DNA of 42,407 nt from Candidatus Uhrbacteria bacterium RIFOXYB12_FULL_58_10 (GTDB taxonomy: Bacteria > Patescibacteriota > Patescibacteriia > UBA9934 > GWF2-40-263): NCBI GenBank assembly GCA_943357025.1, contig CALRGA010000001.1:1-42407 (forward strand), in the 5' to 3' direction. The notes beneath the pieces are model-generated. The model worked only from the letters and a program-made list of their open reading frames with translations, ran no database searches and was not told the DNA's origin. The translations under genes were made by a program, and so were the position numbers. Position 1 is the first letter of the stretch. Each line of letters opens with the position of its first letter. This document shows, piece after piece, positions 10,465 through 42,407 of this stretch.

Positions 10465-10469
10465 TCTAT

Positions 10470-10498
10470 ATAATACATCCTTGAACACAAAAAGTCAA
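10470..10498 (-). promoter_or_regulatory. Predicted sigma70-type promoter of the candidate ncRNA
   Basis: On the minus strand: TTGACT (10498-10493), 17 nt, TATTAT (10475-10470). Confidence 0.6.
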
Positions 10499-10569
10499 AA
10501 ATCAAGAAATGAAGTAACCTAGCGAAAATATCACGAAGTGTGAAATTTTTGTGCTCAAGTGCTCTGAAC

Positions 10570-10621
10570 TGTGGATAAAAGTTATCCACAGTTATACCTA
10601 GTTTTCACCAAGTTATCCACA
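10570..10621. promoter_or_regulatory. Cluster of three exact and two degenerate DnaA boxes
   Basis: Exact boxes: TGTGGATAA 10570-10578, TTATCCACA 10582-10590, TTATCCACA 10613-10621. Degenerate boxes: TTATACCTA 10592-10600, TTTTCACCA 10602-10610. An AT-rich tract lies immediately to the left. Confidence 0.65.
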
Positions 10622-15341: not shown

Positions 15342-15465
15342 AATTTCGTCACGCGCGTCCGAGAAACGGAGTTGAGCCCGGCTCCAAGGCGGCGTCGCAA
15401 GAGTGAATTACAGGGGAAGAATAGCAAAAGGCGGGTTTTTCGTCAATTCTGGCACAGGGATACGG

Positions 15466-15471
15466 TATACT
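15466..15471 (+). promoter_or_regulatory. -10 box of the giant ORF (leaderless layout)
   Basis: TATACT lies 8 nt upstream of the ATG at 15480. No good -35 box is present. Confidence 0.4.
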
Positions 15472-15479
15472 GTCACGGT

Positions 15480-18400
15480 ATGGCGATCGATATCATCTCA
15501 CCGGAGGAGGAAGCGGCGCGGGCGGCGAATTTAAAGAAGGCGAAGGTCGATCTGTTTATAGGGAAACCCTTTTGGTTTGAGGATTTTCTTCGGAACAACG
15601 GCCCGCTTTCCGACGTCGACCGGATTCATGCGGAGGCATTGGCGCTGAACGGATATCTCTTCGCGAAGGAGAAAGGCGGGGATATCGAGACGTACGAGCG
15701 GCTGTTCCCGTTTTTCGCCGAGGGCCCGTCTTCTCCTGAGTTCCTGCGCGTGGCAAAGGAACGCATGCGCCGCAGCCTTCGGGTCGGGTGGATGGAGAAC
15801 GTCGCGGAAGCGCTGAAGGACGGATGGATTCAGCCGGAATATCTGGCGTCCGAGGAGGCGATCGCGTTCGCCCTGGAGTTCGTCGCGAAGAGAGCGAGGG
15901 ATTCGCACGCGGACAGCGAGGTGATCGGCATGCTCGCCCTTCCGTTTCCCGCGTCGTTCTTCGAATCGAGTGCCGTCATGTCGATGCTGCGCGGATGCGT
16001 TGGGAACTTCATTCGATACCGCGTGCAGGACGCGGAGAAAATCCTCGGCCGTCTCCGCGGAACGGCATTCGAGCCTTCCCCGGAAAGCATTGAGACGGAC
16101 GCGAAGGTTGGGATCCACCAGGCGTTTTGCAAGGACAAGCCCGAGGTGGTGGACGCGTACATTCGCGACTATGGGATGGCCGGCGAGATGCCGACCGGCG
16201 CGGAACGCCACAAAGCCGCCGAGGAATATCTGCGGCACGAGAATATCGATGGGCTGTTGGAGTACGTCCGCCGCTTTGGGAGCGAGGGCATTGGGCAGGA
16301 AGGCAGCCGGGTGCATTCCCTCGATGGTGCGATTGCGGAACGGGCGGCGGAACGGGATTGGGAGAGGATCCGGAAGGTGCTGACCGTGCTTGGGATCTCG
16401 GATCGCCAGGCGACGAATCGCGGCCGAGGCCCGGTTGCGCACGCCGTCGACACCTTGGGACAAAACGAGGCGTTTGCGGAGGCCAAGGAGCTTGCAAGGC
16501 AGTACAAAATAAATGACCAGGAGCTCCTGCAGAGGATGGGCTACTCTATCCAGGTGGCCTTCCGCCAAAGACACGACGTTCTCGCGAACACGCCCGAGGA
16601 ACCGACCAATGTCGCCCGCACGCTGTTGTCGGATGTGGACCGTGTTTTCGAAAGGTTTGCCAGCGTCTTTCCGGACATCGAGCCGGAACGGCTGTCGCAA
16701 GGGCGACGGGAAACCCTCACGAGATTTCTGGAACGAAATTCGTACCAAAACAAGATCCTTCCGTCCGAGCTGGCGATGTACGACGCGATGTTCGCGGAAA
16801 CCGGCGATCCGGAATGGAAGCGACAGAAAGAAAAGGCGATCCATTCCAAATTGTTCGAATACAACCTTCCGGAGTTCCAGGCGGCCGTGAAATCCCTGGA
16901 GGGAATGGGAGTAACCATGGACGATCCGGCCGTCAAAACGCTGGCATGGGTCGTGGGCGGTGGGCTGTCTTCCATGGGGAAAAAGAAAGTCGCGAAGTTC
17001 ATGAGGATCCACGGCATCGGCGCGGAGGCGTTCGAAACTCCCGCGATGCGTCCCGTCGTTGACGAACGTGCGCGGGCCTTGCTGCGCGAGCTGAATTTTT
17101 TCCAGCTGGACCGGCTGACGGAACTGACGAAGACGGACTGCGCGGAACGGGCGATCGCGACGGCGAGGGAATCGCGCGACTTCGACCACGACCGCCTGGT
17201 GAACGGAATCCGGAACGGGGACAAGCGCACGGTCGAGATCGCACAACGGCTTGGACTGACCGCCGATGATTTCCCGGGATCGCTTCCGCCAAGCTTCGTG
17301 ACGGGGGCGCTTCCCGAGTCATTGCGCCCGGTGCTTGGCCGGGACGCGTGGGCGCCGGCGTACAAGCGGATGCTCAACCTTCAGGGACGAAGCTCCCGCG
17401 CCATGTACGACCCGTGGGTCACGGACTTCGATCCGCTTGTGGACCGTCTGGCGAAGGCGGGAATGATCGATCGCGAAAAGGCCGAGGACGGCGAGATCGT
17501 GCTCGAGTTCGTGCGACAGTTCGGGATGACGAGCGCGCCCATGCTCGCGGAGACGTTCGTGGAACTGAGGCGCGGAAAAAAATTCGCAGAGCTGTCCGAG
17601 GCACAACGCCGACGACTTACGGAGACGATCGGAAAGCGGGTCGAGCGCATGACGAACGAGCAGCTCGTCAACGAGATGAAGCTGACGCGGGCAAGGCTCG
17701 TCGGCGAACTGCTGAACGACGAGATTCCAAGAGGCCTTTCGACGGAACTCGGATTGGAAATGCTTTCCTCGATGACCGGCGTTTCCATGTGGACGCGGCC
17801 GGAGGACAGTCCCGCGGAGCTTGTCGCGACCCTGCGGGAGACGTTGTCCGATCCGGTTCGACGCGCGGCGCTGATGCCGCCGGACGCATATTTCGACCGA
17901 CGCGACCCTGCGCGCACGAGCGGCATGGCCCTGACGGTCCGCGAGGCCCGCCGCAGTCCCGCCCCGCCAGAATCAAGGGAGGTCGCCTCGAGGCAGATCG
18001 ACGAGCTTCTTGCCGAACGGCCGGAAGCGCCCACGAGCGCGGGACGGTTCTACCTGGCGCTCAAGGAAGCCTGCTCCGTCGCCACCGAGGACGCGGAACC
18101 GGCCTCCGAGGCGCTTCGGAACCTGTTCCTTGGAAAAAGTTGCTCCGAGGACATTCCCGATATCAACCGCGACTCGGCCATGAGGAAGGACGCGCTCGAA
18201 TGGATGAGCCGGCAAATTCGGGAGCTTGCCGTCCGAGGCGCGGTAATTTCAAAGGAGGACTGGCTCGCGCTTTCCGTCGTCCTTCTCCAATCGAGCGGCA
18301 AGGATTCTTCCTGGGCCCGCGAGATCATCCAAATTTCACGCGAGGAAGCGTCGCTGACGGCTGATTCGCTCGAACGGCTGAGCGAGGCGCTTCGCCTCTT

Positions 18401-19142
18401 CGTCTTCGAGCATTTCCTCGCCGAGGACCAGGCGCGCCATGGCGATAATCCGAACCCGCTTGGGGACGAGCTGCTCCGCGCGTTTCGATCTGCCTGGGAA
18501 TTGGAAACCGACCGTCAGGACAAACACCCGATTCTCCTTGCGGCGCAGGAGGTTGACCGGCTGAGGGAAGGAATGGAACGGGTAACGTTTGGAAAGGAGA
18601 TAACTGTCTCGCTCGTGGCCGCGGGCGCCGTGCCGCGCGTCTTTGCCGGCGACGTGGCCGACGCGTGTTACACGAGCAAGCACCAGGAGCTCGCCGAGGG
18701 AGAATTTCCCGGCGTGCGGTCGCTCATGTTCGTGACGAACCGAGGCGACGGGAAGGAGCGGATCATGGGCAGCGTCCTATTCGTGGAGGCGATCACGCCG
18801 AGCGGAGAGAAGGTGCTGGTCGTTCGCGCGAACAATCCGCGGCAGAACTTGCTCGGAAAGGTTTCGGCGGACGACCTCGTGGAACAGACGATCCAGGCCG
18901 CGATCCGCGTGGCCGAGCGCGGCGGGTTCGACATGGTTGCCCTGCCGCCGGATTTCGCGGGGCAGAGCTCGAGCAACCGTCCCGAGGTCAGCAAGATCTA
19001 TCGGACGCGGTTTCGAAAGAATCGCCGCGTTCGCCTCGTCGAGAATCCCGACACGACGTTCAACGGCTACAAGGTTTGGGACGACAAGGGCCCGCATGGA
19101 GTGGCGGTCGTCTGGGAAAAGAAAACGGGACGGATCGAGTGA
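15480..19142 (+). CDS. Orphan 1221-aa cytoplasmic protein, mostly alpha-helical, with a C-terminal alpha/beta region of about 190 aa
   Basis: Uninterrupted high-GC3 ORF. The track start is a TTG at 15372, but its first 36 codons are Arg-rich and include the -10 box, so I chose the ATG at 15480 (MAIDIISPEEE...). No TM segment, signal peptide or catalytic motif was recognised by eye. Confidence 0.85.
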   Translation: MAIDIISPEEEAARAANLKKAKVDLFIGKPFWFEDFLRNNGPLSDVDRIHAEALALNGYLFAKEKGGDIETYERLFPFFAEGPSSPEFLRVAKERMRRSLRVGWMENVAEALKDGWIQPEYLASEEAIAFALEFVAKRARDSHADSEVIGMLALPFPASFFESSAVMSMLRGCVGNFIRYRVQDAEKILGRLRGTAFEPSPESIETDAKVGIHQAFCKDKPEVVDAYIRDYGMAGEMPTGAERHKAAEEYLRHENIDGLLEYVRRFGSEGIGQEGSRVHSLDGAIAERAAERDWERIRKVLTVLGISDRQATNRGRGPVAHAVDTLGQNEAFAEAKELARQYKINDQELLQRMGYSIQVAFRQRHDVLANTPEEPTNVARTLLSDVDRVFERFASVFPDIEPERLSQGRRETLTRFLERNSYQNKILPSELAMYDAMFAETGDPEWKRQKEKAIHSKLFEYNLPEFQAAVKSLEGMGVTMDDPAVKTLAWVVGGGLSSMGKKKVAKFMRIHGIGAEAFETPAMRPVVDERARALLRELNFFQLDRLTELTKTDCAERAIATARESRDFDHDRLVNGIRNGDKRTVEIAQRLGLTADDFPGSLPPSFVTGALPESLRPVLGRDAWAPAYKRMLNLQGRSSRAMYDPWVTDFDPLVDRLAKAGMIDREKAEDGEIVLEFVRQFGMTSAPMLAETFVELRRGKKFAELSEAQRRRLTETIGKRVERMTNEQLVNEMKLTRARLVGELLNDEIPRGLSTELGLEMLSSMTGVSMWTRPEDSPAELVATLRETLSDPVRRAALMPPDAYFDRRDPARTSGMALTVREARRSPAPPESREVASRQIDELLAERPEAPTSAGRFYLALKEACSVATEDAEPASEALRNLFLGKSCSEDIPDINRDSAMRKDALEWMSRQIRELAVRGAVISKEDWLALSVVLLQSSGKDSSWAREIIQISREEASLTADSLERLSEALRLFVFEHFLAEDQARHGDNPNPLGDELLRAFRSAWELETDRQDKHPILLAAQEVDRLREGMERVTFGKEITVSLVAAGAVPRVFAGDVADACYTSKHQELAEGEFPGVRSLMFVTNRGDGKERIMGSVLFVEAITPSGEKVLVVRANNPRQNLLGKVSADDLVEQTIQAAIRVAERGGFDMVALPPDFAGQSSSNRPEVSKIYRTRFRKNRRVRLVENPDTTFNGYKVWDDKGPHGVAVVWEKKTGRIE

Positions 19143-32222: not shown

Positions 32223-32873
32223 TTATTCCGTAAACGATTGGCTGAGCGCGCGCGCCTCCTTGGTGACGAACCGTTTTAATTCGTCGATCCCTAGAGGGAC
32301 CGTCATCTTTGGAAGTGCCTCGACGCGCCGTACCTTCGCCAGCTCGCTGCCGAGGAACAGGTCAGTGATGGCGCTGCCGAATTTCGTTTCCGCGTCACGA
32401 CGAATGTCGGCGAGAGGGCGATTCTGAAGGATCGCGTATAGGTCGACGAAATCCTTCGGGTCGAATCGGTTGAGGAGGGCCATGAGCTTGTTGGCGGAGA
32501 CGTCGCGCAGGCTGTCGACGCGCACTCCTTCCTCGACGCGGATTGGATCGAGCCGCGCGAACGGATAGCGAGTGAACTCGAGCTTGAGCTCGTAGTCGCC
32601 GATGCCTAGAAAATAGAGGTTGCGGTCGAAGATTTGGTCCGAACGAAGCCGGTCCGCTCCAAGCGTAAATTTGAGATTGTCGATGAACGACGTGAGGAAT
32701 GCGCGGTCGCACGGCTCGGACGTGAAAAAGTCTAGGTCGTCCGATACGCGATGATGGAGATAGTACGCGGACAGCGCCGTGCCGCCGGACAAATAGTATC
32801 CGTCGAGACGCGGCTCGTCATTCACGATGCGAAGGACTTCCTTCTGCGTATCGGTTAAAATGGCTTGTTCCAT
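32223..32873 (-). CDS. Nucleotidyltransferase AbiEii/AbiGii-family toxin-like protein (DUF1814)
   Basis: YYLSGGTALSAYYLHHRVSDDLDFF matches the Pol-beta-type G[GS]-x10-D-x-D motif. The length and the helical C-terminal half are typical of short AbiEii proteins. Confidence 0.88.
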   Translation of the reverse strand: MEQAILTDTQKEVLRIVNDEPRLDGYYLSGGTALSAYYLHHRVSDDLDFFTSEPCDRAFLTSFIDNLKFTLGADRLRSDQIFDRNLYFLGIGDYELKLEFTRYPFARLDPIRVEEGVRVDSLRDVSANKLMALLNRFDPKDFVDLYAILQNRPLADIRRDAETKFGSAITDLFLGSELAKVRRVEALPKMTVPLGIDELKRFVTKEARALSQSFTE

Positions 32874-33055
32874 ACGAGAAGTTCGAGAAAGGCTCGGCGG
32901 TTGTCGTCGATCTTGAGTTCCGGGAGATATTGCTCGAGGAGTTTTTTACTCAGCTTTTTTCCCTCCAGCCCATAGTTAATCATCCGCTCCAGCATCCAAA
33001 CCGGATCGGCGGCAGCCTGCGCATCCTGTTGTGCTGGAGTGTAGTCCCATGCCAT
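32855..33055 (-). CDS. 66-aa protein upstream of and overlapping the AbiEii-like gene (putative cognate antitoxin/partner)
   Basis: MAWDYTPAQQDAQAAADPVWMLERMINYGLEGKKLSKKLLEQYLPELKIDDNRRAFLELLVWNKPF. It overlaps the downstream gene by 19 nt, a typical toxin-antitoxin layout. Confidence 0.65.
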   Translation of the reverse strand: MAWDYTPAQQDAQAAADPVWMLERMINYGLEGKKLSKKLLEQYLPELKIDDNRRAFLELLVWNKPF

Positions 33056-35080: not shown

Positions 35081-35106
35081 GACTCATCGGAAGATGAGTC
35101 TTTTTT
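35081..35106 (+). terminator. Rho-independent terminator of the tRNA operon
   Basis: GACTCATC-ggaa-GATGAGTC followed by TTTTTT. Confidence 0.85.
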
Positions 35107-35609
35107 GTTGAGTCTGCTTTGTTATGAGTCGAAACTTTTGGATTACCACGCTTTCTCCCACATTAAAGCTTTGAAGGACGAGTCGCTCAGGACAATGAAA
35201 TAACTCTATTCGCTACAAGTCCGATACCTCGCGACTCTGCCGTGTTGTTTCAAACGTAATTGAAAGCGGAGCGAAGAAATTTATCGACGAGATTTCTTTG
35301 TCATCTATGGACTCCTCGCGATGATATAAATTGCGGATATCATATCCTTTTTATGACAGGGTAGCTTATGCGTTATTTATTTTGCTGCAACATGTCTTCG
35401 TTCCGTTTGATCACAAACTATGATCACCGACCGACAAAAACGACTTAAACGTCGAATGAAAGAATTTCAATTATAAGTTTCGTGTGAAACAAGAGAAGAT
35501 GTCTTTCAGAATTATTTTGAGGAAATTATTTTGTTAATTAATAACAAATGCATAAAAATCGGATTATAATTTTAATTTGTCTACACCAGTGTAGCCAAAT
35601 TTCATCAAA

Positions 35610-35648
35610 TGTGGATAAGTATTCGAAAAGTGTTTATCCTGTGGGTAA
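35610..35648. promoter_or_regulatory. One exact and one near-exact DnaA box
   Basis: TGTGGATAA at 35610-35618 is exact. TGTGGGTAA at 35640-35648 has one mismatch. Confidence 0.45.
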
Positions 35649-35687
35649 TTATAATGAATACGAAAGAATTAATCGCGAAAGAAAATA

Positions 35688-35715
35688 ATTTATTCGCTAA
35701 AATCAGCGAATAAAT
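35688..35715. promoter_or_regulatory. Perfect 11-bp inverted repeat just upstream of the operon -35 box (operator-like site or AU-rich terminator)
   Basis: ATTTATTCGCT-aaaatc-AGCGAATAAAT, ending 3 nt before the TTGACC at 35719. Confidence 0.5.
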
Positions 35716-35718
35716 CTT

Positions 35719-35747
35719 TTGACCAAACCATGTATTCAAGGTATAAT
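35719..35747 (+). promoter_or_regulatory. Near-consensus sigma70 promoter of the surface-protein operon
   Basis: TTGACC (35719-35724), 17 nt, TATAAT (35742-35747). The leader to the ATG at 35770 is 22 nt. Confidence 0.7.
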
Positions 35748-35769
35748 CGATGCACCGAATGGTCGAATT

Positions 35770-36675
35770 ATGCGAACGATTGTCGCAGTCATGGTAATAG
35801 CGGGGTTTTTTGGCGCGGCGGCGCAAGCCTTTGCCCAAATGGACTCCACGAGTTATCAAATTCGTTGGGATACCGTTGGAAATGGCGGAGATGACGTCAG
35901 TTCATCCTCGTCCTACATCCTCAAAGACACAACGGGCAGCGCGGGGATCGGCGATTCCGCGAGCGCGTCCTATGAACTCGGTGCCGGCTATCGGCCAGGG
36001 ATTTCAAGCGACGTGCTTGACTTCTCGTTCTTTTCGGAAGACAGCGCAACGTCAACGGCGGCAACCGCGCTTGCCGGACTGACGATCGACTGCGATCCGA
36101 CGGATTTTTCCATCGGCGACATGATCGCGCTTCTCCAGGATCGCGGCGAGGATCAGGTTACGGCGATAGGGCAGGTCGTTTCCATCGGAATCGACTCGAT
36201 CACGGTCGATGCCTTAAAAGACGCCGGCGACATGCCCGCTATCGACGGTTCAAACGATTTCGTCGCCATCCTCGAAGGCGAGTCGTCCGCGCTCAGCACG
36301 CTCAGCACGTCGGCGGTTCGAACGTCCGTCATTGGAATGAGCGTCAGCTCGTCCGCGCCGGACGGATACGCGGTCCAGATCCTATCCGACGGAGATTTTC
36401 GCGACGTAGCCGAAACGGTCAACCCCGTCGCGGACGGATCCGTCACGGCCGGATCAGAGGAATACGGCGCGCGCTCGTCGGACTCGGACATATCCTCGTC
36501 GACCTTCGATTCGGCCGACTCCGCTATTACCACCTCGTTTCAAACGATCGCCGACCTCGACGCGGTCGTTTCGAACGACCGTAACTTCCTCGTCACAAAG
36601 GCCGCGATTTCCCCCTCGACGGTCGCCGGCAGCTACGCGCAGACGCTGACGCTCATCGTTTCCGGTCACTACTAG
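35770..36675 (+). CDS. Secreted Ser/Thr/Asp-rich beta-type protein (301 aa), first gene of the surface operon
   Basis: Signal peptide MRTIVAVMVIAGFFGAAAQAFAQ. Repeated S-x-Y-x-L/I motifs (STSYQIRWDTVGNGG, SSSYILKDTTG, SASYELGAGY). The C-terminus reads AGSYAQTLTLIVSGHY. The track start at 35719 is the -35 box, so I chose the ATG at 35770. Confidence 0.85.
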   Translation: MRTIVAVMVIAGFFGAAAQAFAQMDSTSYQIRWDTVGNGGDDVSSSSSYILKDTTGSAGIGDSASASYELGAGYRPGISSDVLDFSFFSEDSATSTAATALAGLTIDCDPTDFSIGDMIALLQDRGEDQVTAIGQVVSIGIDSITVDALKDAGDMPAIDGSNDFVAILEGESSALSTLSTSAVRTSVIGMSVSSSAPDGYAVQILSDGDFRDVAETVNPVADGSVTAGSEEYGARSSDSDISSSTFDSADSAITTSFQTIADLDAVVSNDRNFLVTKAAISPSTVAGSYAQTLTLIVSGHY

Positions 36676-36682
36676 CGGGCCT

Positions 36683-37636
36683 ATGCTCCGTCGACTCATC
36701 CCTTTCTTCTGTGCGGTCGTCCTGCTGTGGATGCCGTATCGCGCCCTCGCCTTCGCCATCGCCCCCGCGACCCTAAATCTCTCAGGGAAGCGCGGCGAGA
36801 CGATCGAGGACTCGATCGCGGTCATCAACGACGGGAGCGCCGAACAGACGTTCACGCTTGGAGCGTTGAAGTTCGCCCCAAGCGAATCGTCCACGCCATC
36901 GTTCATTCCATTTGAAACGGATCACTCGGGCCTCCCCGAGTGGATTGCGTTTCCAATAAAGACAGTCACGATCCCGGCAAGCACAAAGGTCGACGTTCCG
37001 TTCGCGATCACGATCCCGCAGGACGTTCCGTCCGGAACGGTCTACGCCGCGATCACCGTGTCGGCATCCAAGTCGAACGATATCGCCACGAACGGCGCGA
37101 CGATTTCCGCGAAGATGGCTTCCCTCCTCTTCGTCACGGTCGAGGGCGAGACGATCGAAAGGCTCGCGCTGCTCGACTTCTCCGCGACGAGCGCGACGGG
37201 ACTGAAGTCATTGGAAATGGCACGATCGTTCGGCTTCCGAGTTCAAAACCAGGGAAACGTCACGTCGGTTCCGATCGGAACGATTACGCTCGTCGACGCG
37301 TTCGGACGCACGTTCGCCTCGCAGCCTATTAACGAGGAGCACGGCCGCGTTCTGCCGATGACGACACGATCGTTTTCCGGATCGATCGGCCCGAACCCCG
37401 TCGGATTCGTCGAGACCGTCCGTTCGCAGATCGCGAACTTCGCGATCGGTCCCGTCACGGCGACGCTGACCGTCGTCGCGGGAACGCGGACGCTCACCAA
37501 GTCGTTCGTATACTGGATGGTTCCTTTGCATCTGATCTTGACCGCCGCGATGGCCGTCGCGATACTGCTCGCTCTCTGGAAACTCCTGTCACATGGACGA
37601 GATCGGCTCGGACGCATTGAGACGGGCTCGCAATAA
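36683..37636 (+). CDS. Ig-like two-domain surface protein with a C-terminal membrane anchor (DUF916/DUF3324-like or CARDB/NEW3-like architecture)
   Basis: Signal peptide ending ALAFAIAP. FAIAPATLNLSGKRGETIEDSIAVINDGS and EWIAFPIKTVTIPASTKVDVPFAITIPQDVPSGTVYAAITV. The C-terminal TM segment MVPLHLILTAAMAVAILLALWKLL is followed by a basic tail. Confidence 0.85.
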   Translation: MLRRLIPFFCAVVLLWMPYRALAFAIAPATLNLSGKRGETIEDSIAVINDGSAEQTFTLGALKFAPSESSTPSFIPFETDHSGLPEWIAFPIKTVTIPASTKVDVPFAITIPQDVPSGTVYAAITVSASKSNDIATNGATISAKMASLLFVTVEGETIERLALLDFSATSATGLKSLEMARSFGFRVQNQGNVTSVPIGTITLVDAFGRTFASQPINEEHGRVLPMTTRSFSGSIGPNPVGFVETVRSQIANFAIGPVTATLTVVAGTRTLTKSFVYWMVPLHLILTAAMAVAILLALWKLLSHGRDRLGRIETGSQ

Positions 37637-37642
37637 TCGTGT

Positions 37643-40600
37643 GTGTTCACTCGCTGGTCAAAATCGCTCTGGAGCGTCGTATCCGTCATCGTTAGCGTAA
37701 CGATGTTGGTTGCGGCTGCTTCATACGCGGCCACGGCAAGCCCGGCAAACGACACGCCGACGTCGCTTCGAACGTCGGAAGGCGCGAATCATTTCCTGGT
37801 CTTTACCACTCCGAGCGGGGTTTCCGAGGGCGAGACGGTCGTCGTCGGTTTCAGCTCGGCGTTCGACACGTCCGGGATCGTCGAGGACGACGTGGACGCT
37901 CAGGACGACGGGGCCGACCTCACCACCGCGGCGAATTGCGGCGGCGCGGAGCAGGCATCCGTCGTAATGGCATCGGACGCGCTCACGATCACGATCTGTC
38001 CCGGCGATGGGGGCGCGATCGCGGCGGCGAGCGAGATCACGGTGAAGATCGGCACGAACGCGACGGCTTCGGGAATCGGAGCCAACCAGGTCGTCAATCC
38101 GGCAACCGTCGGAACCTACTACGTTTCCATTGCCGGAACGTTCGGCGACTCCGGATCGATCGCCCTTCCCATGCTTGAGGAGGGATCGGTCGGAGTCACG
38201 GGAACGGTCCCGCCGTCGCAGGGCGGAGGTGGCGGTGGAGTACCTTCGGAAGGATGCGGAGACTCGATTGCGCCGGAGATTTTCTCGGTCGTCATCTCGA
38301 ACGTCACGGACTCGTCCGCGACCGTCGGCTGGTCAACGAGCGAGAACGCGGACAGCGCGGCGGACTACGGCACGACCGCATCGTATGAGATCGCAACGGA
38401 ATCAAGCTCAAGCCTCGTCACGTCGCACTCTGAAGTCCTTTCAGGGCTGTCGGAAGGAACAACGTATCACGTTCGCGTCCGGTCGAGCGACCTGTGCTCG
38501 AATCAGGCATCGTCCGGAGACCAGACGTTCTCGACGAACGACGCGACCGCGCCGATCATCTCGAGCGTCGTCGCGACGGTCACGTCCTCGACGTCCGTCA
38601 CGATTACCTGGACCACGATTGAGCCGGCAACGAGCTGGGTCAACTACGGCGCGACCGCGTCCTACGGAACCGTTGTTGGGGACTCGACGCTCTCCACCAG
38701 CCACTTGGTCATTATCACCGGGCTCGACGAGGGAACGACGTATCACTTCGACGTCGAATCCGCGGACGCGTCCGGCAATTCGGCAACGTCGTCCGATGAC
38801 ACGTTCGTCACGTCGTCGAATCCAGCTCCTTCCAACGTGTCGGATCTCGTCGTCGACGCTTCCTCGGGAGCCGTGGAACTCTCGTGGACCAATCCGTCCG
38901 ACGCCGATTTCGAAGGAGTTCGCGTTTTGATGTGCATGGACGGTTTTCCGTCCGGACCAGACGACACCGACTGTACGGTTGTCTACTCTGGCGTAGCCAA
39001 CGCGACGAGCGTCGAAACGCTCATGGATGGCACAACCTATTACTTCGGGGTCTTCGCGCAAGACGCCGCTGGGCAGTTCGCTTCTGGCGCTCTCGGTTTA
39101 GGTACTCCGAGCACGCCAGTAGAAGAGGTGCCCATGCCCGAAGAGGTTTCCGTACCTGCAGTGACCCCTCCCGAAGAGGAAACGACCGTCTCGGCAGAAA
39201 CCGGAACGGATCAAACGGTTTCGACGGAAACGCTTTCGGCCGTCGACGAATCGGAAGAGCCTTCGGAAGCAGTCCCTGCAGGGATTGAAACCCCATCGGA
39301 TCAGACACCTCCCATTCCTCCCACCACCGTCGTGGAAGAGGATCTTGTCCCACAAGGGGACGTAACGTTCTTTGTCGCCAGCGGAACGATCCAGCTTGCC
39401 CCGTCCGGCTCCGGCACGGTGCACGTCCTTGGAAACCGTCCGCTAAGCGTGATGCTTGAAACAAAGCATCTCACGAAGGAAATCTCGCGCGTCCAGCTCG
39501 TCCTCGGAGCCAGCGCCTATATCATGGCCCTGTCCAACGACGGCAGCACGTATGCGGCCGACGTCTCCACCCCCGGAGCGCCCGCCGATTACGGAATCGC
39601 GACGAGCATCTACTACGCCGATGGAACGGTCCAATCCATCGGAACCAACCTCGAGGTCGAAGGCGACGGGTACGCCTACTTCCAACAGGAAGGACAACTC
39701 TCTCGCGTCGGAGGCGCGAACGTCACGCTGCTAACGAACGGCACTGTTCCCTGGGACGGATCCCCCTTCGCACAGTTCAATCCGATCGTTACCGCAGAAG
39801 ACGGGCAGTTCGGCTGGTACGTTCCGAACACGACGTACGCTCTTTCCGCGGATGCAGGCGGGTACCTGCAAGCCGGGACAAGGACGTTTTCCGTGACGGA
39901 CAACATTGCCAACCAGGCCATCCGCATGGAATTGCACCAGGCGGATTCCGCACCTCCGGCGCAAATCACCGACGTGGTGATGTCGAACCTTTCCGTCGTG
40001 GGCACGTTTGTGTCCGCGACGCTCGAATCCGTTCGAGCCGTACCGGGAGTCGAAGAGGCGGCCGCGGTCTCCACCCCCGCGCTCGTCGTCGTCACGGCCG
40101 CATCGGCGGTCGTGCTCGCGACGAGCTTCAATCTTCTCGCGTTCCTTCAGTCGCTCTTTACGTCTCCGCTCCTGTTCTTCGGGCGTCGTACGCGCCGGTC
40201 GTACGGGGTGGTGTACAACTCGATTACGAAAGTTCCTTTGGACCTCGCCACCGTTCGATTGTTCCGAATGCCGGACGACTGGAACGGCGCGAAGGACGTC
40301 GTCGGAAAGCTCGTCCAAAGCCGCGTAACCGACAAGGGCGGAAGATATTTTTTCCTTCCTCCTCCCGGCCGGTACCGGCTGAGCGTGATCAAGAATCAGT
40401 TCGTCTTTCCGTCCGAGTATCTCGGAGGAGCGAAGGATGACGGATCGTTCCTTGACGTCTACCACGGAGAGCCGATCGTCGTGACGGACGCGAACGCGAG
40501 CATTTCCGCGAACGTTCCGCTCGACCCGACTCAGGCTTCCGCGCAACACGCGTCGGCGCAAGTTCTCCTCAGAACGAAGCTGCGTCGCATTCAGAAGGCC

Positions 40601-41008
40601 GCCTCCCTCGCCGGGATCGTCCTCTCCGTGTTCGTCGCGGTCATTCGCCCAACCTTGTTTTCGATCGCGATGATCGGCGCGCAGGTTGGGTTCTATCTCC
40701 TCGTTCGGCGCCTTGCCATTCCGCGAAAACCCAAGTCCTGGGGAATCGTGTACGACCAGGAAACGGGCCGGCCGCTCGGACGCGTGATCGCCCGCGTGTT
40801 CGAACCGAAATACAACAAGCTGCTCGAGACCGCTGTCACGGACGGCAAGGGACGATACACGTTCCTCCTCGGTCCGAACGAGTACTACACCGTCTACGAA
40901 AAGGCTGGCTTCGAGAATGCCGAAATTCGGCCGATCGACTATCGCAACCTAACGGAACCTTCGGAATTCTCTCGTGACATCTCGATGATGCGCGGGAAGT
41001 CGGTATGA
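37643..41008 (+). CDS. 1121-aa multidomain envelope protein: N-terminal anchor, three FN3 domains, Glu/Pro/Thr linker, beta-sandwich region, and three carboxypeptidase-regulatory-like domains interleaved with TM helices
   Basis: GTG start. FN3 domains at about aa 210-300, 305-395 and 400-490 (ATVGWSTSE...GTTYHVRVRS; VTITWTTIE...GTTYHFDVES; VELSWTNPS...GTTYYFGVFA). CarboxypepD_reg-like signatures VTAEDGQFGWYVPNTTYALSA, VTDKGGRYFFLPPPGRYRLSV and VTDGKGRYTFLLGPNEYYTVYEKAGF. Hydrophobic segments at about aa 811-846 and 986-1022. Confidence 0.9.
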   Translation: MFTRWSKSLWSVVSVIVSVTMLVAAASYAATASPANDTPTSLRTSEGANHFLVFTTPSGVSEGETVVVGFSSAFDTSGIVEDDVDAQDDGADLTTAANCGGAEQASVVMASDALTITICPGDGGAIAAASEITVKIGTNATASGIGANQVVNPATVGTYYVSIAGTFGDSGSIALPMLEEGSVGVTGTVPPSQGGGGGGVPSEGCGDSIAPEIFSVVISNVTDSSATVGWSTSENADSAADYGTTASYEIATESSSSLVTSHSEVLSGLSEGTTYHVRVRSSDLCSNQASSGDQTFSTNDATAPIISSVVATVTSSTSVTITWTTIEPATSWVNYGATASYGTVVGDSTLSTSHLVIITGLDEGTTYHFDVESADASGNSATSSDDTFVTSSNPAPSNVSDLVVDASSGAVELSWTNPSDADFEGVRVLMCMDGFPSGPDDTDCTVVYSGVANATSVETLMDGTTYYFGVFAQDAAGQFASGALGLGTPSTPVEEVPMPEEVSVPAVTPPEEETTVSAETGTDQTVSTETLSAVDESEEPSEAVPAGIETPSDQTPPIPPTTVVEEDLVPQGDVTFFVASGTIQLAPSGSGTVHVLGNRPLSVMLETKHLTKEISRVQLVLGASAYIMALSNDGSTYAADVSTPGAPADYGIATSIYYADGTVQSIGTNLEVEGDGYAYFQQEGQLSRVGGANVTLLTNGTVPWDGSPFAQFNPIVTAEDGQFGWYVPNTTYALSADAGGYLQAGTRTFSVTDNIANQAIRMELHQADSAPPAQITDVVMSNLSVVGTFVSATLESVRAVPGVEEAAAVSTPALVVVTAASAVVLATSFNLLAFLQSLFTSPLLFFGRRTRRSYGVVYNSITKVPLDLATVRLFRMPDDWNGAKDVVGKLVQSRVTDKGGRYFFLPPPGRYRLSVIKNQFVFPSEYLGGAKDDGSFLDVYHGEPIVVTDANASISANVPLDPTQASAQHASAQVLLRTKLRRIQKAASLAGIVLSVFVAVIRPTLFSIAMIGAQVGFYLLVRRLAIPRKPKSWGIVYDQETGRPLGRVIARVFEPKYNKLLETAVTDGKGRYTFLLGPNEYYTVYEKAGFENAEIRPIDYRNLTEPSEFSRDISMMRGKSV

Positions 41009-42407
41009 ATTCGTGGATGATTCAAAACCGAGCCACTCGCCCGTTCGCGGCCACGCTCATCGCACTGGTCGCATTTGCGGTTATAACCTCGCCTCTCCTG
41101 ACGGCCTACGCGGCCGCCCCCGTGAACGCCATCTCGTACCAGGGGCGGCTGCTCGACACTTCCGGAAACCCGGTTTCCGACGCCAGCGCGGAATTTGTCT
41201 TCAGGCTCTATGGCTCGGCAGCGGGAGTCGACTGTCTCTGGCAGTCCGACGACGGCGCGGCGTGCGCCGGAGCCGACACGCAGACGGTCGCGCTGAACGA
41301 CGGACTTTTTTCAGAAAATATCGGCTCATCCGTCGATCCGGCCGGCTTGTCCGAGGCATATCCCGTCGACCTTTCCGGCGTCTTCGAGAACAACGCGGAC
41401 GTATACCTCGAGGTCGTCATCAACGGCGAGACCCTTTCCCCGCGCAAGCAGATCGTCGCGGCCCCGTTCGCGCTCAACTCGCAGTCGCTCGACGGGCTCG
41501 ACTCGACGGACTTTCTATCGAACGCGGGCGATACCGCGACGGGCGCGTTCGAATTCACGGGTAACATGACCATGAACGACGCGGACGCGGACTCGATCCT
41601 CATCGGCGCGGCCGCCGACACCGTCACCATCGCCTCGAACGCCCTCTCCCTCGCCGACGACGACTGGAACGTCTCCATTGCCGGAGCGGCCAGCTTCGCG
41701 TCGGTGACGCTCAGCGGCCTCGTCTCGACGATGGTCATGGCCGACGCCGCAGGAACCATCGTCGCGGCGACGGCCGGGACGGATTACATGGACGGCGCGT
41801 TGGCGGACAACAGCGTCTTCATCGGAAACGTCGCCGGCGACGCGACGGCAGTCACGCTTTCTGGCGACGTCACAAGCACGAACCTGGGCGTTTTGACGAT
41901 CGGGAGCGGGAAGGTCGACGGCGACAAGATCTTGGATGATTCGATCGGCTGGGCCGACATTGCGGACGCGACGACGCTCGACGCGGACACGTCCATCGCC
42001 ACCGCCGGCTTCGCCCTTTCAACGACCGGCCTCGGCGCGCTCACGTTTTCCTCAACAGGGCAGGTCTCCTTCGCGGGCAACGTGAACGCGACCAGCGGCC
42101 TCGACGTCACCGGCGCGAGCCTGACGGTCGGCGGCGCGAATTTCAGCGTGGACAACGCGAGCGGCGACACGATCGTCGGCGGGACGCTCGGCGTGACGGG
42201 CGCGTCGACGCTTGCCGGAACCACCGCCACGACGCTCGGCGCCACCGGCGACGTCACCATGAACGACGCCGGCGCGGACACGATCGCCATCGGCGCGGCC
42301 GCCGACACCGTCACCATCGCCTCGAACGTACTCTCCCTCGCCGACGACAACTGGAACGTCTCCTCGGCCGGCGCGGCCAACTTCGCGTCGATCGGCGCCG
42401 TGGCGTC
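41005..42407 (+). CDS. Secreted repeat-containing fibre-like protein; the 3' end runs off the window
   Basis: Absent from the ORF track because there is no stop in the window. ATGA overlap with the upstream stop. Signal peptide MNSWMIQNRATRPFAATLIALVAFAVITSPLLTAYAAAP. N-module VNAISYQGRLLDTSGNPVSDASAEFVFRLYG...YLEVVINGETLSPRKQIVAAPFALNSQSLDG, followed by Gly/Ala/Thr/Asp-rich repeats. Confidence 0.85.
   Translation, partial: MNSWMIQNRATRPFAATLIALVAFAVITSPLLTAYAAAPVNAISYQGRLLDTSGNPVSDASAEFVFRLYGSAAGVDCLWQSDDGAACAGADTQTVALNDGLFSENIGSSVDPAGLSEAYPVDLSGVFENNADVYLEVVINGETLSPRKQIVAAPFALNSQSLDGLDSTDFLSNAGDTATGAFEFTGNMTMNDADADSILIGAAADTVTIASNALSLADDDWNVSIAGAASFASVTLSGLVSTMVMADAAGTIVAATAGTDYMDGALADNSVFIGNVAGDATAVTLSGDVTSTNLGVLTIGSGKVDGDKILDDSIGWADIADATTLDADTSIATAGFALSTTGLGALTFSSTGQVSFAGNVNATSGLDVTGASLTVGGANFSVDNASGDTIVGGTLGVTGASTLAGTTATTLGATGDVTMNDAGADTIAIGAAADTVTIASNVLSLADDNWNVSSAGAANFASIGAVA
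41569..41703 (+). repeat. Intragenic direct repeat, copy 1 (135 bp)
   Basis: About 88% identical to 42256-42390 by hand alignment, including a 41-nt exact run (41601-41641 = 42288-42328). The offset is 687 nt, or 229 codons. Confidence 0.8.
42256..42390 (+). repeat. Intragenic direct repeat, copy 2 (135 bp)
   Basis: See copy 1. It encodes TMNDAGADTIAIGAAADTVTIASNVLSLADDNWNVSSAGAANFAS, versus TMNDADADSILIGAAADTVTIASNALSLADDDWNVSIAGAASFAS in copy 1. Confidence 0.8.

What the first reader, a model, noticed from the sequence alone, without database searches (positions are those of the whole stretch)
35719..42407. Four-gene signal-peptide operon: candidate undescribed cell-surface fibre/adhesion assembly module
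Four consecutive plus-strand ORFs are separated by 7, 6 and -4 nt, so they are almost certainly one transcript. Each starts with a signal peptide or signal anchor. They encode (i) a 301-aa secreted Ser/Thr-rich beta protein, (ii) a two-domain Ig-like protein held by a single C-terminal TM helix, (iii) a 1121-aa FN3/CarboxypepD_reg multidomain membrane protein and (iv) a fibre-like repeat protein that continues beyond the window. The combination of a small secreted subunit, an Ig-like membrane-anchored partner and giant adhesin-like proteins recalls Gram-positive Csc/WxL cell-surface clusters and, more loosely, chaperone-assisted fibre systems. However, there is no sortase/LPXTG signal, no usher, no pilus ATPase and no recognisable WxL motif. 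The operon sits behind the best promoter in the window, an operator-like palindrome and a 0.6-kb AT-rich island. I consider it the strongest candidate in this window for a novel system.
Basis: partly seen in the sequence, partly recalled or inferred. Interest (0 to 1): 0.72.

Follow-up and report, generated by a model that had tools for sequence, protein, structure and literature searches.

The report
Minimal Pam-type surface fibre operon (Uhrbacteria)
This four-gene operon of an ultrasmall CPR bacterium (Candidatus Uhrbacteria) most likely builds a cell-surface attachment fibre; it is a stripped-down, so far undescribed variant of the "Pam" pilus system reported for CPR bacteria in 2026, and its helper protein is related to the WxL-interacting proteins of Gram-positive bacteria.

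Summary
Four plus-strand genes (gaps 7, 6 and -4 nt), each starting with a signal peptide, follow a strong promoter, a palindrome and an AT-rich leader.

- **Not an undescribed system.** Gene 1 belongs to the CPR Pam pilin superfamily (NCBIfam PamT E 8e-15; Pam_pilin_C E 7e-8, whole model covered; both below the curated cut-offs).
- **Gene 2** is a two-Ig-domain protein with a C-terminal membrane helix. Its best structural matches are E. faecium WxLIP (E 2e-12) and chaperone-usher chaperones (CfaA, CsuC).
- **Gene 3** has a conserved N-domain, three FN3 domains, three membrane helices and two CarboxypepD_reg domains. This makes it PamR-like in outline only.
- **Gene 4** is a fibre of at least 1334 aa with a Bdellovibrio MAT_N-like N-domain and a variable remainder.
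- **Conservation.** The order gene 1-2-3-4 is kept in every sufficiently long locus among 58 Uhrbacteria loci, and more distant CPR clusters contain the same parts.
- **Differences from the published pam operon.** There are no PamA/B/E major pilins and no ATP synthase nearby.

Best reading: a minimal chaperone-assisted, donor-strand type fibre mount for host adhesion. This is a new variant of a known kind and moderately interesting.

The parts
35106..35682 (.). AT-rich, gene-free leader between the tRNA-Ala terminator and the operator. It contains a perfect DnaA-box-like TTATCCACA at 35610-35618 (minus strand).
   Evidence: GC is 0.34 against 0.60 in the genes, and the same contrast is seen in all related loci. 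DnaA-box count. No Rfam family found. The only ORF called here overlaps the tRNA.
35683..35720 (.). Operator-like inverted repeat. Its core is GCTAAAATCAGC at 35696-35707, consensus GCTAA-N2-TTAGC.
   Evidence: Found. The core lies 23 nt upstream of the start of the -35 box in 41 of 59 related loci. The strict palindrome occurs 32 times in 1.0 Mb of loci, and 25 of those are within 200 nt upstream of g1.
35719..35747 (+). Sigma-70-type promoter TTGACC-17-TATAAT, with a conserved GTATTCA core in the spacer.
   Evidence: Scores 11/12 and is joint best in the window. It is conserved in relatives whose proteins are only about 40% identical.
35770..36675 (+). g1: secreted PamT-like pilin subunit, 301 aa, signal peptide residues 1-22.
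   Evidence: NCBIfam PamT E 7.8e-15 and Pam_pilin_C E 7.4e-8, both below their cut-offs. Of 75 family members, 74 hit PamT and 66 hit Pam_pilin_C. A profile search finds 1591 related 50%-identity clusters.
35836..36003 (+). g1 N-terminal extension (aa 23-78) with three S-x-[SN]-Y-x-[IL] strand motifs. Proposed donor-strand / assembly segment.
   Evidence: This is the most conserved part of g1: 18 of 56 columns are at least 90% conserved. AF2 nevertheless gives pLDDT below 50 for the monomer. It carries the PamT match. In L070 the same segment is fused to FN3 repeats without the pilin domain.
36004..36264 (+). g1 inserted beta-domain (aa 79-165). It is absent from the 210-240-aa PamT-like relatives.
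   Evidence: Those relatives match g1 in two stretches, 1-80 and 167-302. AF2 is confident here. There are only weak similarities to small beta-barrels and phage tail tube proteins.
36265..36672 (+). g1 C-terminal pilin domain (aa 166-301). Proposed strand-acceptor, truncated Ig-like fold.
   Evidence: Pam_pilin_C model positions 2-148 of 148 align to residues 169-301. The top Foldseek PDB hits are the chaperone-usher pilins CfaB, FimA and CsuA/B, but they are weak (E 0.015-0.1).
36683..37636 (+). g2: membrane-anchored two-Ig-domain chaperone-like protein (WxLIP / PamC-D / PapD-like), 317 aa.
   Evidence: AF2 pLDDT 91.5. Foldseek: WxLIP 9i25_C E 1.7e-12, CfaA E 3.5e-11, CsuC, CupB2, DraB. The family profile hits EfmWxLIP1 at E 2.5e-4. 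Pfam WxLIP_PGBD is sub-threshold.
37064..37114 (+). g2 F-G loop (aa 128-144). Proposed donor hairpin.
   Evidence: Low pLDDT, yet the loop and the following strand are the most conserved parts of g2. This is the region that aligns to EfmWxLIP1. The WxLIP loop is predicted to order on binding and complete the WxL sandwich (PMC10599100).
37526..37609 (+). g2 C-terminal transmembrane helix (aa 282-309).
   Evidence: AF2 helix 282-309; hydropathy.
37643..41008 (+). g3: 1121-aa membrane protein. Proposed stalk, anchor or assembly platform.
   Evidence: Pfam fn3, Pur_ac_phosph_N and CarboxypepD_reg. Conserved in all loci.
37733..38212 (+). g3 conserved N-terminal domain (aa 31-190).
   Evidence: Present in all homologues, including the short 650-915-aa forms, and in the distant clusters L063, L064 and L071. 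No PDB sequence relative.
38270..39106 (+). g3 array of three FN3 domains. Their number varies between relatives.
   Evidence: Short homologues lack this part.
40058..40942 (+). g3 conserved C-terminal module: a TM segment (aa 806-846), a CarboxypepD_reg-like domain, a TM hairpin (aa 985-1021) and a second CarboxypepD_reg-like domain. By the positive-inside rule both domains are cytoplasmic (inferred).
   Evidence: Hydropathy and Pfam. This is the best conserved part of g3 across loci. Homologues are only from Uhrbacteria-like sources.
41005..42407 (+). g4 (5' part): giant secreted fibre protein, cut off by the end of the window.
   Evidence: It is at least 1334 aa on L003, and homologues range from 1078 to more than 1900 aa.
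41113..41574 (+). g4 conserved N-terminal domain (aa 37 to about 190), MAT_N-like.
   Evidence: NCBIfam Bdello_MAT_N E 8.9e-9 against a cut-off of 60 bits. The window protein, its near-identical copy on L003 and three more distant homologues all hit it, at E 1e-3 to 5e-8. It is the only part of g4 conserved across loci.
41560..42407 (+). Start of the g4 Gly/Ala/Thr/Asp-rich tandem repeats (units of about 230-240 aa), the variable shaft.
   Evidence: Contigs of near-identical genomes break inside g4.

Best explanation
The operon encodes a minimal, CPR-type (Pam-like) surface fibre system that is assembled with a chaperone and without an usher. Its likely role is attachment to a host cell.

**Shown**
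- The four genes form one conserved unit behind a conserved promoter and operator.
- All four products carry Sec-type signal sequences.
- g1 is a member of the PamT / Pam-pilin superfamily.
- g2 is a WxLIP / PapD-like two-Ig protein tethered by a C-terminal membrane helix.
- g3 is a membrane protein with an FN3 array.
- g4 is a giant fibre with a conserved MAT_N-like base and a hypervariable remainder.

**Inferred**
- After export, g2 stays in the membrane. Its conserved but intrinsically disordered F-G loop completes the incomplete Ig-like C-terminal domain of g1 (donor-strand complementation).
- That strand is then replaced by a strand from the next component, most likely the conserved N-terminal extension of another g1 (donor-strand exchange). 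This would give a short stalk or filament.
- g3 is the membrane base and stalk, the counterpart of PamR. It has an extra polytopic module that may act as an assembly platform.
- The trimeric g4 fibre is docked through its MAT_N-like domain, and its variable distal part recognises the host.
- Because the major pilins PamA/B/E are missing, the structure is more likely a fibre mount (tip + anchor + adhesin) than a long pilus.
- A dimeric regulator that binds GCTAA-N2-TTAGC controls expression.
For: **g1**
- NCBIfam PamT E 7.8e-15 and Pam_pilin_C E 7.4e-8, with the whole 148-position domain model aligned.
- 74 of 75 and 66 of 75 family members hit these two models.
- 1591 related 50%-identity clusters exist, many of them 210-240 aa with the PamT architecture.
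- The best PDB folds are chaperone-usher pilins.
- The N-terminal extension is the most conserved region but is disordered in the monomer model. It also occurs fused to FN3 repeats alone.

**g2**
- AF2 pLDDT 91.5, two beta-sandwiches plus a TM helix.
- Foldseek: WxLIP E 1.7e-12, CfaA 3.5e-11, CsuC 3e-9.
- The family profile hits EfmWxLIP1 at E 2.5e-4 across the F-G loop.
- The loop is conserved yet has low pLDDT. This matches the WxLIP loop that is predicted to order and complete the WxL sandwich (PMC10599100).

**g3 and g4**
- Domain content of g3.
- MAT_N-like hits in g4 and its homologues.
- One g4 homologue has a Peptidase_G2 intramolecular-chaperone domain.

**Synteny**
- The order g1-g2-g3-g4 holds in every sufficiently long locus among the 58 loci.
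- Distant PamT-like genes are again next to g2-like, g3N-like and/or MAT_N-like genes.

**Published model**
- The Pam model has the same logic: TM-anchored PamC/D chaperones, the PamT tip, the FnIII+TM PamR anchor and a co-localised tail-fibre-like protein.
Against: - All family matches for g1, g2 and g4 are below the curated cut-offs.
- The Foldseek pilin hits for g1 are weak (no E below 1e-3).
- No multimer prediction or experiment was available, so no interaction or polymerisation is shown.
- The preprint describes PamT as a single-domain tip subunit without a donor linker. This argues against g1 self-polymerising.
- g3 shares only domain types with PamR. No sequence comparison with the M. 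amalyticus proteins was possible.
- No profile similarity was found between g1 and the N-domains of g3 or g4.
- No ATP synthase genes lie nearby, unlike the published pam neighbourhoods.
Confidence: 0.7

Rival explanations
1. A WxL/Csc-type surface complex that does not polymerise. g2 (a WxLIP homologue) permanently holds g1 at the membrane by strand insertion. g1 plays the role of the small WxL protein, and g3 and g4 are the large adhesins. No filament is formed.
For: - The closest solved structure, and the only sequence-level PDB hit, for g2 is E. faecium WxLIP.
- There is only one pilin-like gene and no major pilin.
- The preprint regards PamT as lacking a donor strand.
Against: - g1 has no WxL domain or motif, and the cluster has no LPXTG protein.
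- g1 matches the Pam pilin C-terminal domain and resembles chaperone-usher pilins.
- The strongly conserved, disordered N-terminal extension of g1 is unexplained under this reading.
Confidence: 0.2
2. Four unrelated envelope proteins (S-layer-like or glycan-binding accessory proteins) that merely share an operon, with no physical assembly pathway.
For: FN3, CarboxypepD_reg and Ig-like domains are generic surface modules. No interaction has been shown.
Against: - The gene order is strictly conserved across 58 species down to about 35% identity, and the same parts recur in distant clusters.
- g1 and g2 form a pilin/chaperone pair that matches known strand-complementation systems.
Confidence: 0.06
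3. A prophage or phage-derived tail-fibre cassette.
For: g4 is tail-fibre-like. One homologue gives a weak PHROG tail-fibre hit and another has a Peptidase_G2 domain. The upstream region is AT-rich.
Against: - The cluster sits at the same chromosomal position, next to rmuC, in nearly all loci.
- There are no phage genes nearby.
- g1 has no significant match among viral structures or in PHROGs.
- The G+C content of the genes equals that of the genome.
Confidence: 0.03

Closest known systems
Pam pilus system of CPR bacteria (Ca. Mycosynbacter amalyticus; Troman et al., bioRxiv 10.64898/2026.03.03.709456; NCBIfam NF058579 PamT, NF058581 Pam_pilin_C)
   Same: - Found in CPR bacteria, with Sec-exported subunits.
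- A pilin with the Pam C-terminal truncated-Ig domain and a PamT-like N-terminal region.
- A two-Ig-domain chaperone anchored by a C-terminal TM helix.
- An FN3-containing membrane anchor.
- An associated tail-fibre-like protein.
- No usher and no ATPase.
   Different: - No PamA/PamB/PamE major pilins: there is one pilin-like gene only.
- g1 carries an 85-aa inserted domain and scores far below the PamT equivalog cut-off (55 against 240 bits).
- g3 is much larger than PamR and has a polytopic membrane module with two CarboxypepD_reg domains.
- No ATP synthase, CorB or MFS neighbourhood.
- The lineage is Uhrbacteria (Parcubacteria group), not Saccharimonadia or Microgenomatia.
WxL / Csc cell-surface clusters of Firmicutes (WxLIP = DUF916 + DUF3324 + TM helix; PDB 9i25, 9i1y; PMC10599100)
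   Same: - g2 is the nearest relative of WxLIP in the PDB by both sequence profile and fold.
- The architecture is the same: signal peptide, two Ig-like domains, C-terminal TM helix.
- Both have a disordered hairpin loop that is predicted to complete the partner's beta-sandwich.
- Both are encoded next to a small secreted partner and large adhesins.
   Different: - No WxL-domain proteins and no LPXTG CscD protein.
- DUF3324 is not detected, and PF06030 is below its gathering score.
- The partner (g1) is a Pam-type pilin.
Chaperone-usher pili (alternate and archaic classes: CfaA/CfaB, CsuC/CsuA/B; classical PapD/FimC)
   Same: The g2 fold matches the chaperones CfaA, CsuC, CupB2 and DraB. The C-terminal domain of g1 resembles the pilins CfaB, FimA and CsuA/B. 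The implied mechanism is donor-strand complementation followed by donor-strand exchange.
   Different: There is no outer membrane and no usher. The chaperone is membrane-tethered. The g1-to-pilin match is weak (E at or above 0.015), and there is no detectable sequence homology.
Bdellovibrio mosaic adhesive trimer (MAT) fibres (PMC10769870; NCBIfam NF053851 Bdello_MAT_N)
   Same: [quoted passage not shown] One homologue has an intramolecular-chaperone domain. The presumed role is recognition of another bacterium.
   Different: The match is sub-threshold (35 against 60 bits). The organism is a monoderm CPR bacterium. The C-terminus is not in the window, and trimerisation is not shown. Here the fibre gene is co-operonic with a pilin/chaperone pair, which has not been reported for Bdellovibrio.

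Membership tests
Pam pilus system (CPR) | [quoted passage not shown] | tested here: inconclusive
   E 7.4e-8 with the whole model (2-148 of 148) aligned to residues 169-301, but 32.6 bits is below the cut-off of 55. 66 of 75 family members hit it, best E 2e-12. Homology is likely, but the curated threshold is not met.
Pam pilus system (CPR) | PamT equivalog (NF058579, cut-off 240 bits) | tested here: not met
   54.9 bits, matching mainly residues 4-75. g1 is a relative of PamT, not an equivalog. It also has an 85-aa insertion that the 210-240-aa PamT-like proteins lack.
Pam pilus system (CPR) | PapD/FimC-like two-domain chaperone with a C-terminal TM helix (PamC/PamD) | tested here: met
   AF2 model with two beta-sandwiches and a helix at 282-309. 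Foldseek hits to CfaA, CsuC, CupB2 and DraB at E 3.5e-11 to 2.6e-7. No direct comparison with the PamC/D sequences was possible.
Pam pilus system (CPR) | Major two-domain pilins PamA/PamB (NTD + linker strand + CTD) in the operon | tested here: not met
   No second protein in the window matches the g1 or pilin profile. The syntenic loci have exactly one pilin-like gene between rmuC and g2.
Pam pilus system (CPR) | FnIII-containing, membrane-anchored terminator (PamR) with an N-terminal donor strand | tested here: inconclusive
   g3 has three FN3 domains and TM segments. It is about four times larger than PamR, has extra domains, and could not be compared with PamR by sequence.
Pam pilus system (CPR) | Filament assembly by donor-strand exchange | not testable with these tools
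   No multimer prediction was available. The only support is indirect: conserved but disordered segments in g1 (aa 23-78) and g2 (aa 128-144).
Pam pilus system (CPR) | Restricted to CPR bacteria | tested here: met
   Named homologues are from Candidatus Uhrbacteria or the Patescibacteria group.
WxL / Csc cluster | WxLIP protein (PF06030 DUF916 + PF11797 DUF3324 + TM helix) | tested here: inconclusive
   PF06030 scores 17.5 bits against a gathering score of 27.3, and 15 of 77 family members hit it; DUF3324 is not detected. The family profile hits EfmWxLIP1 at E 2.5e-4. WxLIP is the top Foldseek hit at E 1.7e-12.
WxL / Csc cluster | At least two WxL-domain proteins in the cluster | tested here: not met
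   No PF13731 hit at E up to 1. No W-x-L motif in g1, g3 or g4; g2 has a single WKL inside its membrane helix.
WxL / Csc cluster | Small LPXTG protein (CscD) | tested here: not met
   No LPXTG-like motif in any of the four proteins.
Chaperone-usher pili | Outer-membrane usher | tested here: not met
   No usher family hit in g1-g4. From general knowledge, CPR bacteria have a single membrane.
Chaperone-usher pili | Pilin with an incomplete Ig fold | tested here: inconclusive
   The top Foldseek hits are CfaB (E 0.015, probability 0.98), FimA and CsuA/B, but none has E below 1e-3.
Bdellovibrio MAT fibres | Conserved MAT_N domain directly after the signal peptide (NF053851) | tested here: inconclusive
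   E 8.9e-9 and 35.3 bits against a cut-off of 60, at residues 33-131. The near-identical copy on L003 and three more distant homologues also hit it, at E 1e-3 to 5e-8.
Bdellovibrio MAT fibres | Trimeric fibre with a variable tip, with or without an S74 protease | not testable with these tools
   The C-terminus lies outside the window and outside L003. One homologue (L055) has a Peptidase_G2 intramolecular-chaperone domain.
Sortase-dependent Gram-positive pili | LPXTG sorting signal and a sortase gene | tested here: not met
   No LPXTG. No sortase among the four genes or the 10 kb upstream.

The most novel reading that the evidence does not exclude
The ancestral core of the PamT-like family may not be a pilus at all. 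It may be a docking machine for tail-fibre-like (MAT-type) host-recognition fibres.

- The PamT-like subunit, its WxLIP-like membrane chaperone and the FN3 anchor together would form the so far unidentified 'surface element' that holds the MAT_N domain.
- This would tie together three systems that have been described separately: CPR Pam pili, Firmicute WxL/WxLIP clusters and Bdellovibrio MAT fibres.
- The long Pam pilus of Saccharimonadia would then be a later elaboration, made by inserting major pilins between the tip and the anchor.
Probability: 0.3. Interest if true: 0.8.

Novelty: new variant of a known kind. Interest (0 to 1): 0.55.

Why it matters
**Host attachment in CPR bacteria.** CPR bacteria are thought to live attached to other microbes, but how most of them attach is unknown. 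Pam pili were resolved only in 2026, in one Saccharimonadia species. That survey followed only PamA and PamB.

**What this locus adds.**
- A PamT-like subunit, a membrane-tethered chaperone, an FN3 membrane protein and a giant variable fibre form a strictly conserved unit across Uhrbacteria.
- The same parts recur in other CPR lineages.
- At least 1591 protein clusters (50% identity) are related to g1.

**Links and testable candidates.**
- The chaperone is linked by sequence and by structure to the WxLIP proteins of Gram-positive bacteria.
- The locus offers a testable candidate for what holds MAT-type fibres on a cell surface.
- It supplies a conserved operator, GCTAA-N2-TTAGC, with which to look for the regulator.

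Tried and rejected
**Searches that gave nothing**
- Foldseek of g1 against viral structures: nothing below E 1e-3.
- Profile searches of the g3 N-domain and the g4 N-domain against PDB sequences: no hits.
- PHROGs on g4 and g1: only two weak hits.
- Rfam on the leader region: only the tRNAs.
- NCBIfam on g2-like and g3-like proteins of distant clusters: no Pam chaperone or PamR model matched.

**Ideas tested and dropped**
- I noticed that the mature N-terminus of g4 (ISYQGRLLDT) resembles the g1 motif (TSYQIRWDT). I tested whether g1 shares a module with the N-domains of g4 or g3. hhalign found nothing (probability below 1%), so the idea was dropped.
- Sortase-dependent pilus, WxL membership, usher and type IV pilin were all rejected, because the defining motifs or domains are absent.
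- Prophage origin was rejected because of the conserved chromosomal position and the housekeeping neighbours.
- I considered reading the AT-rich leader with its DnaA box as oriC. It has only one perfect box, and the GC-skew change there coincides with the C-rich coding strand of these genes. I left this open.

**Search of limited value**
- The third homologue search, with the g3 C-terminal module, returned only Uhrbacteria-like fragments. It gave no wider distribution.

Full report
**1. Observation**

The four ORFs exist as described:
- g1: 35770-36675, 301 aa.
- g2: 36683-37636, 317 aa.
- g3: 37643-41008, 1121 aa, GTG start.
- g4: 41005 to beyond the window end.

The gaps are 7, 6 and -4 nt. 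The longer TTG-initiated form of g1 (35719) is an artefact, because that TTG is the first base of the -35 hexamer. Homologues are about 301 aa. A public gene call starts g3 20 codons later. The GTG start gives a normal signal peptide, and TGT-GTG is conserved at that place in relatives.

All four proteins begin with a signal-peptide-like hydrophobic segment. g2 ends in one TM helix, and g3 has further TM segments at residues 806-846 and 985-1021. None has an LPXTG-like motif; g1, g3 and g4 have no W-x-L motif, and g2 has only a single WKL inside its membrane helix.

The promoter TTGACC-17-TATAAT (35719-35747) scores 11/12. It is joint best in the window with two others. A 16-nt-arm palindrome lies at 35683-35720. 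The 600 nt upstream have GC 0.34 against 0.60 in the genes.

**2. Source and conservation**

Near-identical contigs come from two assemblies, GCA_943357095.1 and GCA_943354085.1. Named homologues of g1 and g2 are all 'hypothetical protein' from Candidatus Uhrbacteria or the Patescibacteria group. This lineage belongs to the CPR. The rest of the window holds housekeeping genes: PNPase, XerC/D-type recombinase, ComM-like ATPase, M23 peptidase, PolA, S20 and RmuC.

A scan of one genome per species returned 58 loci.
- tblastn shows g1, g3 and g4 in the same order in every locus that is long enough.
- A g2 profile finds a g2 homologue directly after g1 even in the 14 loci where tblastn missed it (E 1e-14 to 1e-57).
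- rmuC lies upstream on the other strand in nearly all loci. The cluster is therefore a vertically inherited part of the chromosome, not a mobile element.

Conservation within the proteins is uneven.
- In g4, only the first 170-190 residues align.
- In g3, an N-terminal domain of about 160 aa and the C-terminal module of about 330 aa are conserved. The FN3 array varies, and it is missing from the short 650-915-aa forms.

**3. Gene 1**

Pfam finds nothing. NCBIfam gives two matches:
- 'CPR-type pilus protein PamT': E 7.8e-15, 54.9 bits, cut-off 240.
- 'Pam pilus system pilin subunit' C-terminal domain: E 7.4e-8, 32.6 bits, cut-off 55, with model positions 2-148 of 148 aligned to residues 169-301.

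These models derive from a 2026 preprint (10.64898/2026.03.03.709456). The preprint reports cryo-EM structures of PamA and PamB filaments from Ca. Mycosynbacter amalyticus, which assemble by donor-strand exchange. It also predicts TM-anchored PapD/FimC-like chaperones (PamC, PamD), a single-domain tip pilin (PamT), an RbmA-like anchor with two FnIII domains and a TM helix (PamR), and a co-localised tail-fibre-like protein.

The AF2 model of g1 has mean pLDDT 79.6. Residues 80-301 are confident. Residues 16-78 are below 50, although residues 23-78 are the most conserved part of the protein, with three S-x-[SN]-Y-x-[IL] motifs (18 of 56 columns at least 90% conserved).

Foldseek against the PDB gives no match below E 1e-3. 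The top of the list is dominated by chaperone-usher pilins: CfaB (E 0.015, probability 0.98), FimA and CsuA/B.

A full HMMER search with the family profile finds 1591 representatives of 50%-identity clusters (410 at E up to 1e-10). Many are 210-240 aa and match in two stretches, 1-80 and 167-302. This is the PamT architecture without the 85-aa middle domain of g1. All ten sampled proteins hit the PamT and/or Pam_pilin_C models (eight hit both), again below the cut-offs.

**4. Gene 2**

The AF2 model (pLDDT 91.5) shows a signal helix, two beta-sandwich domains and a TM helix at 282-309. The best Foldseek hits are:
- WxLIP of E. faecium: 9i25_C E 1.7e-12, and 9i1y.
- The chaperone-usher chaperones CfaA (E 3.5e-11), CsuC, CupB2 and DraB.
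- RbmA.

The family profile hits EfmWxLIP1 by sequence at E 2.5e-4. Pfam WxLIP_PGBD is sub-threshold (17.5 against 27.3 bits; 15 of 77 members). DUF3324 is not detected.

The region aligned to WxLIP includes the loop at residues 128-144. This loop has low pLDDT, yet together with the following strand it is the most conserved part of g2. In WxLIP, the equivalent long hairpin loop is disordered in the free model. It is predicted to become a strand that completes the beta-sandwich of the WxL partner (PMC10599100). That is donor-strand complementation in all but name. The Pam preprint does not mention WxL or DUF916.

**5. Genes 3 and 4**

g3 consists of:
- a signal peptide;
- the conserved N-domain (aa 31-190);
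- three FN3 domains;
- a Pro/Glu-rich linker;
- a further beta-rich region;
- a hydrophobic segment (aa 806-846);
- a CarboxypepD_reg-like domain;
- a TM hairpin (aa 985-1021);
- a second CarboxypepD_reg-like domain.

By the positive-inside rule, both CarboxypepD_reg-like domains would be cytoplasmic. This is an inference.

g4 has a signal peptide followed by a domain of about 150 aa that matches NCBIfam Bdello_MAT_N (E 8.9e-9, 35 bits, cut-off 60). The near-identical copy on L003 and three more distant homologues match it too, at E 1e-3 to 5e-8. A Gly/Ala/Thr/Asp-rich shaft follows, with repeats of about 230-240 aa. Homologues are 1078 to more than 1900 aa, and one carries a Peptidase_G2 intramolecular-chaperone domain.

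In Bdellovibrio, all 21 MAT fibres share such an N-domain. That domain 'would presumably tightly bind a surface element' which has not yet been identified (PMC10769870).

**6. Wider context**

I looked up the genomic context of seven more distant PamT-like proteins. In each context that extended beyond the PamT-like gene itself, that gene lies next to the same kinds of partner:

| Locus | Gene order |
|---|---|
| L063 | pilin, extra 386-aa protein, g2-like, g3-like, MAT_N-like fibre |
| L064 | pilin, g2-like, g3-like, fibre |
| L067 | fibre, 155-aa protein, pilin, g2-like |
| L071 | g2-like, pilin, g3N-like |
| L072, L073 | pilin followed directly by a MAT_N-like fibre |

L070 encodes the g1-type N-terminal extension fused directly to g3-like FN3 repeats, without a pilin domain. 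This suggests that the extension is a portable assembly element.

**7. Regulation**

The upstream region is conserved far beyond what the protein divergence would predict. The following elements keep fixed positions in 41 of 59 loci:
- a palindrome GCTAA-N2-TTAGC, 23 nt upstream of the start of the -35 box;
- the -35 box TTGAC[TCG];
- a GT[AG]TTCA core in the spacer;
- the -10 box.

The strict palindrome occurs 32 times in 1.0 Mb of fetched loci, and 25 of these are within 200 nt upstream of g1. This is a real cis-regulatory site for an unknown dimeric factor. A DnaA-box-like TTATCCACA also lies within 400 nt upstream in most loci.

**8. Interpretation**

The best-supported reading is a minimal Pam-type module without an usher (confidence 0.7).
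- g2 is a membrane-tethered chaperone. It caps the incomplete C-terminal domain of g1 with its F-G loop.
- The cap is exchanged for a strand from the next component, probably the N-terminal extension of g1.
- g3 is the membrane base and stalk.
- g4 is the host-recognition fibre, docked through its MAT_N-like domain.

Only the domain identities, homologies, synteny and cis-elements are shown. Every interaction is inferred. No major pilins are present, so I favour a short fibre mount over a long pilus.

The main rival is a non-polymerising WxL-like complex (confidence 0.2). Unrelated envelope proteins and a phage cassette are both unlikely.

**9. Comparison and novelty**

This is not a new kind of system. 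It belongs with Pam pili and works like a chaperone-assisted donor-strand system. It does fail several membership tests:
- It is not a PamT equivalog.
- It has no PamA/B/E.
- It has no WxL proteins.
- It has no usher.

It also differs in architecture:
- the inserted domain in g1;
- the polytopic module of g3;
- the co-operonic MAT_N-like fibre;
- the lineage.

The preprint surveyed only PamA and PamB. I therefore rate it as a new variant of a known kind, with interest 0.55.

**10. Limits**

- No multimer modelling was possible.
- I had no access to the M. amalyticus protein sequences.
- The 1591 representative hits carry no taxonomy.
- All family matches for g1, g2 and g4 are below the curated thresholds.
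- The C-terminus of g4 is unknown.

Noticed in passing
window 10090-10470 (minus strand), with 10470-10621: An intergenic stretch of about 380 nt folds far better than shuffled sequence (MFE -143.8 against -96.4 +/- 5.5 kcal/mol; z = -8.65). It ends in a hairpin plus a U-run. A 10/12 promoter-like site lies at 10498 on the same strand, and three perfect TTATCCACA boxes lie at 10570-10621. It has no Rfam match at E up to 0.1 and no tmRNA call. It is a candidate unannotated structured RNA.
   Followed up: partly
window 2391, 10570, 10582, 10613, 35610 (perfect); 11 sites with at most 1 mismatch: The DnaA-box consensus TTATCCACA is over-represented: 11 sites against 2.7 expected, and no shuffle out of 100 reached 11. 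The perfect copies at 10570-10621 and 35610 lie in AT-rich intergenic DNA, and the one at 2391 lies just upstream of the ORF that starts at 2428. One copy lies in the g1 leader, and similar boxes occur upstream of g1 in most related loci. This may be regulation by DnaA, a general promoter-associated motif, or proximity to an origin.
   Followed up: partly
L070:879-3024 (GCA_043801735.1): This protein carries the g1-type N-terminal three-strand extension (residues 1-79) fused directly to g3-like FN3 repeats, with no pilin domain. The extension therefore looks like a portable module.
   Followed up: partly
P0266 (544 aa, JGI): A homologue of the g3 C-terminal TM/CarboxypepD_reg module (37% identity) is annotated with a prepilin-type N-terminal cleavage/methylation domain (PF07963). 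This hints at a link between the module and type IV pilin-like proteins.
   Followed up: no
L033:18449-20803, L048:17823-20165, L053:18310-20649, L055:16932-19265: In one Uhrbacteria subclade, with short g3 and no GCTAA-N2-TTAGC palindrome, a fifth gene of about 780 aa follows g4 on the same strand. It has C-terminal TPR repeats. Whether the window's genome has it cannot be seen.
   Followed up: partly
window 15372-19142 (+); also 335-1414 (+), 2428-3855 (+), 10623-11921 (-): Large ORFs (1256, 359, 475 and 432 aa) have no Pfam match at E up to 1e-4. The 1256-aa ORF may be another surface protein.
   Followed up: no
window 32223-33055 (minus strand): A 216-aa AbiEii-family toxin gene overlaps a 66-aa upstream ORF (probable antitoxin). 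They sit between the ABC transporter and rpsT.
   Followed up: no
L001-L004 and the window end (42407): All near-identical public contigs, and the window itself, end inside g3 or g4. The repeats of about 230-240 aa in g4 probably break assemblies, so the full length and tip domain of this fibre are unknown.
   Followed up: partly
record titles of L006, L009, L014, L016, L018, L020, L021 and others: Many MAG records titled 'uncultured Gammaproteobacteria bacterium' carry this Uhrbacteria-type cluster with the same synteny. The titles look like placeholder or wrong taxonomy.
   Followed up: no
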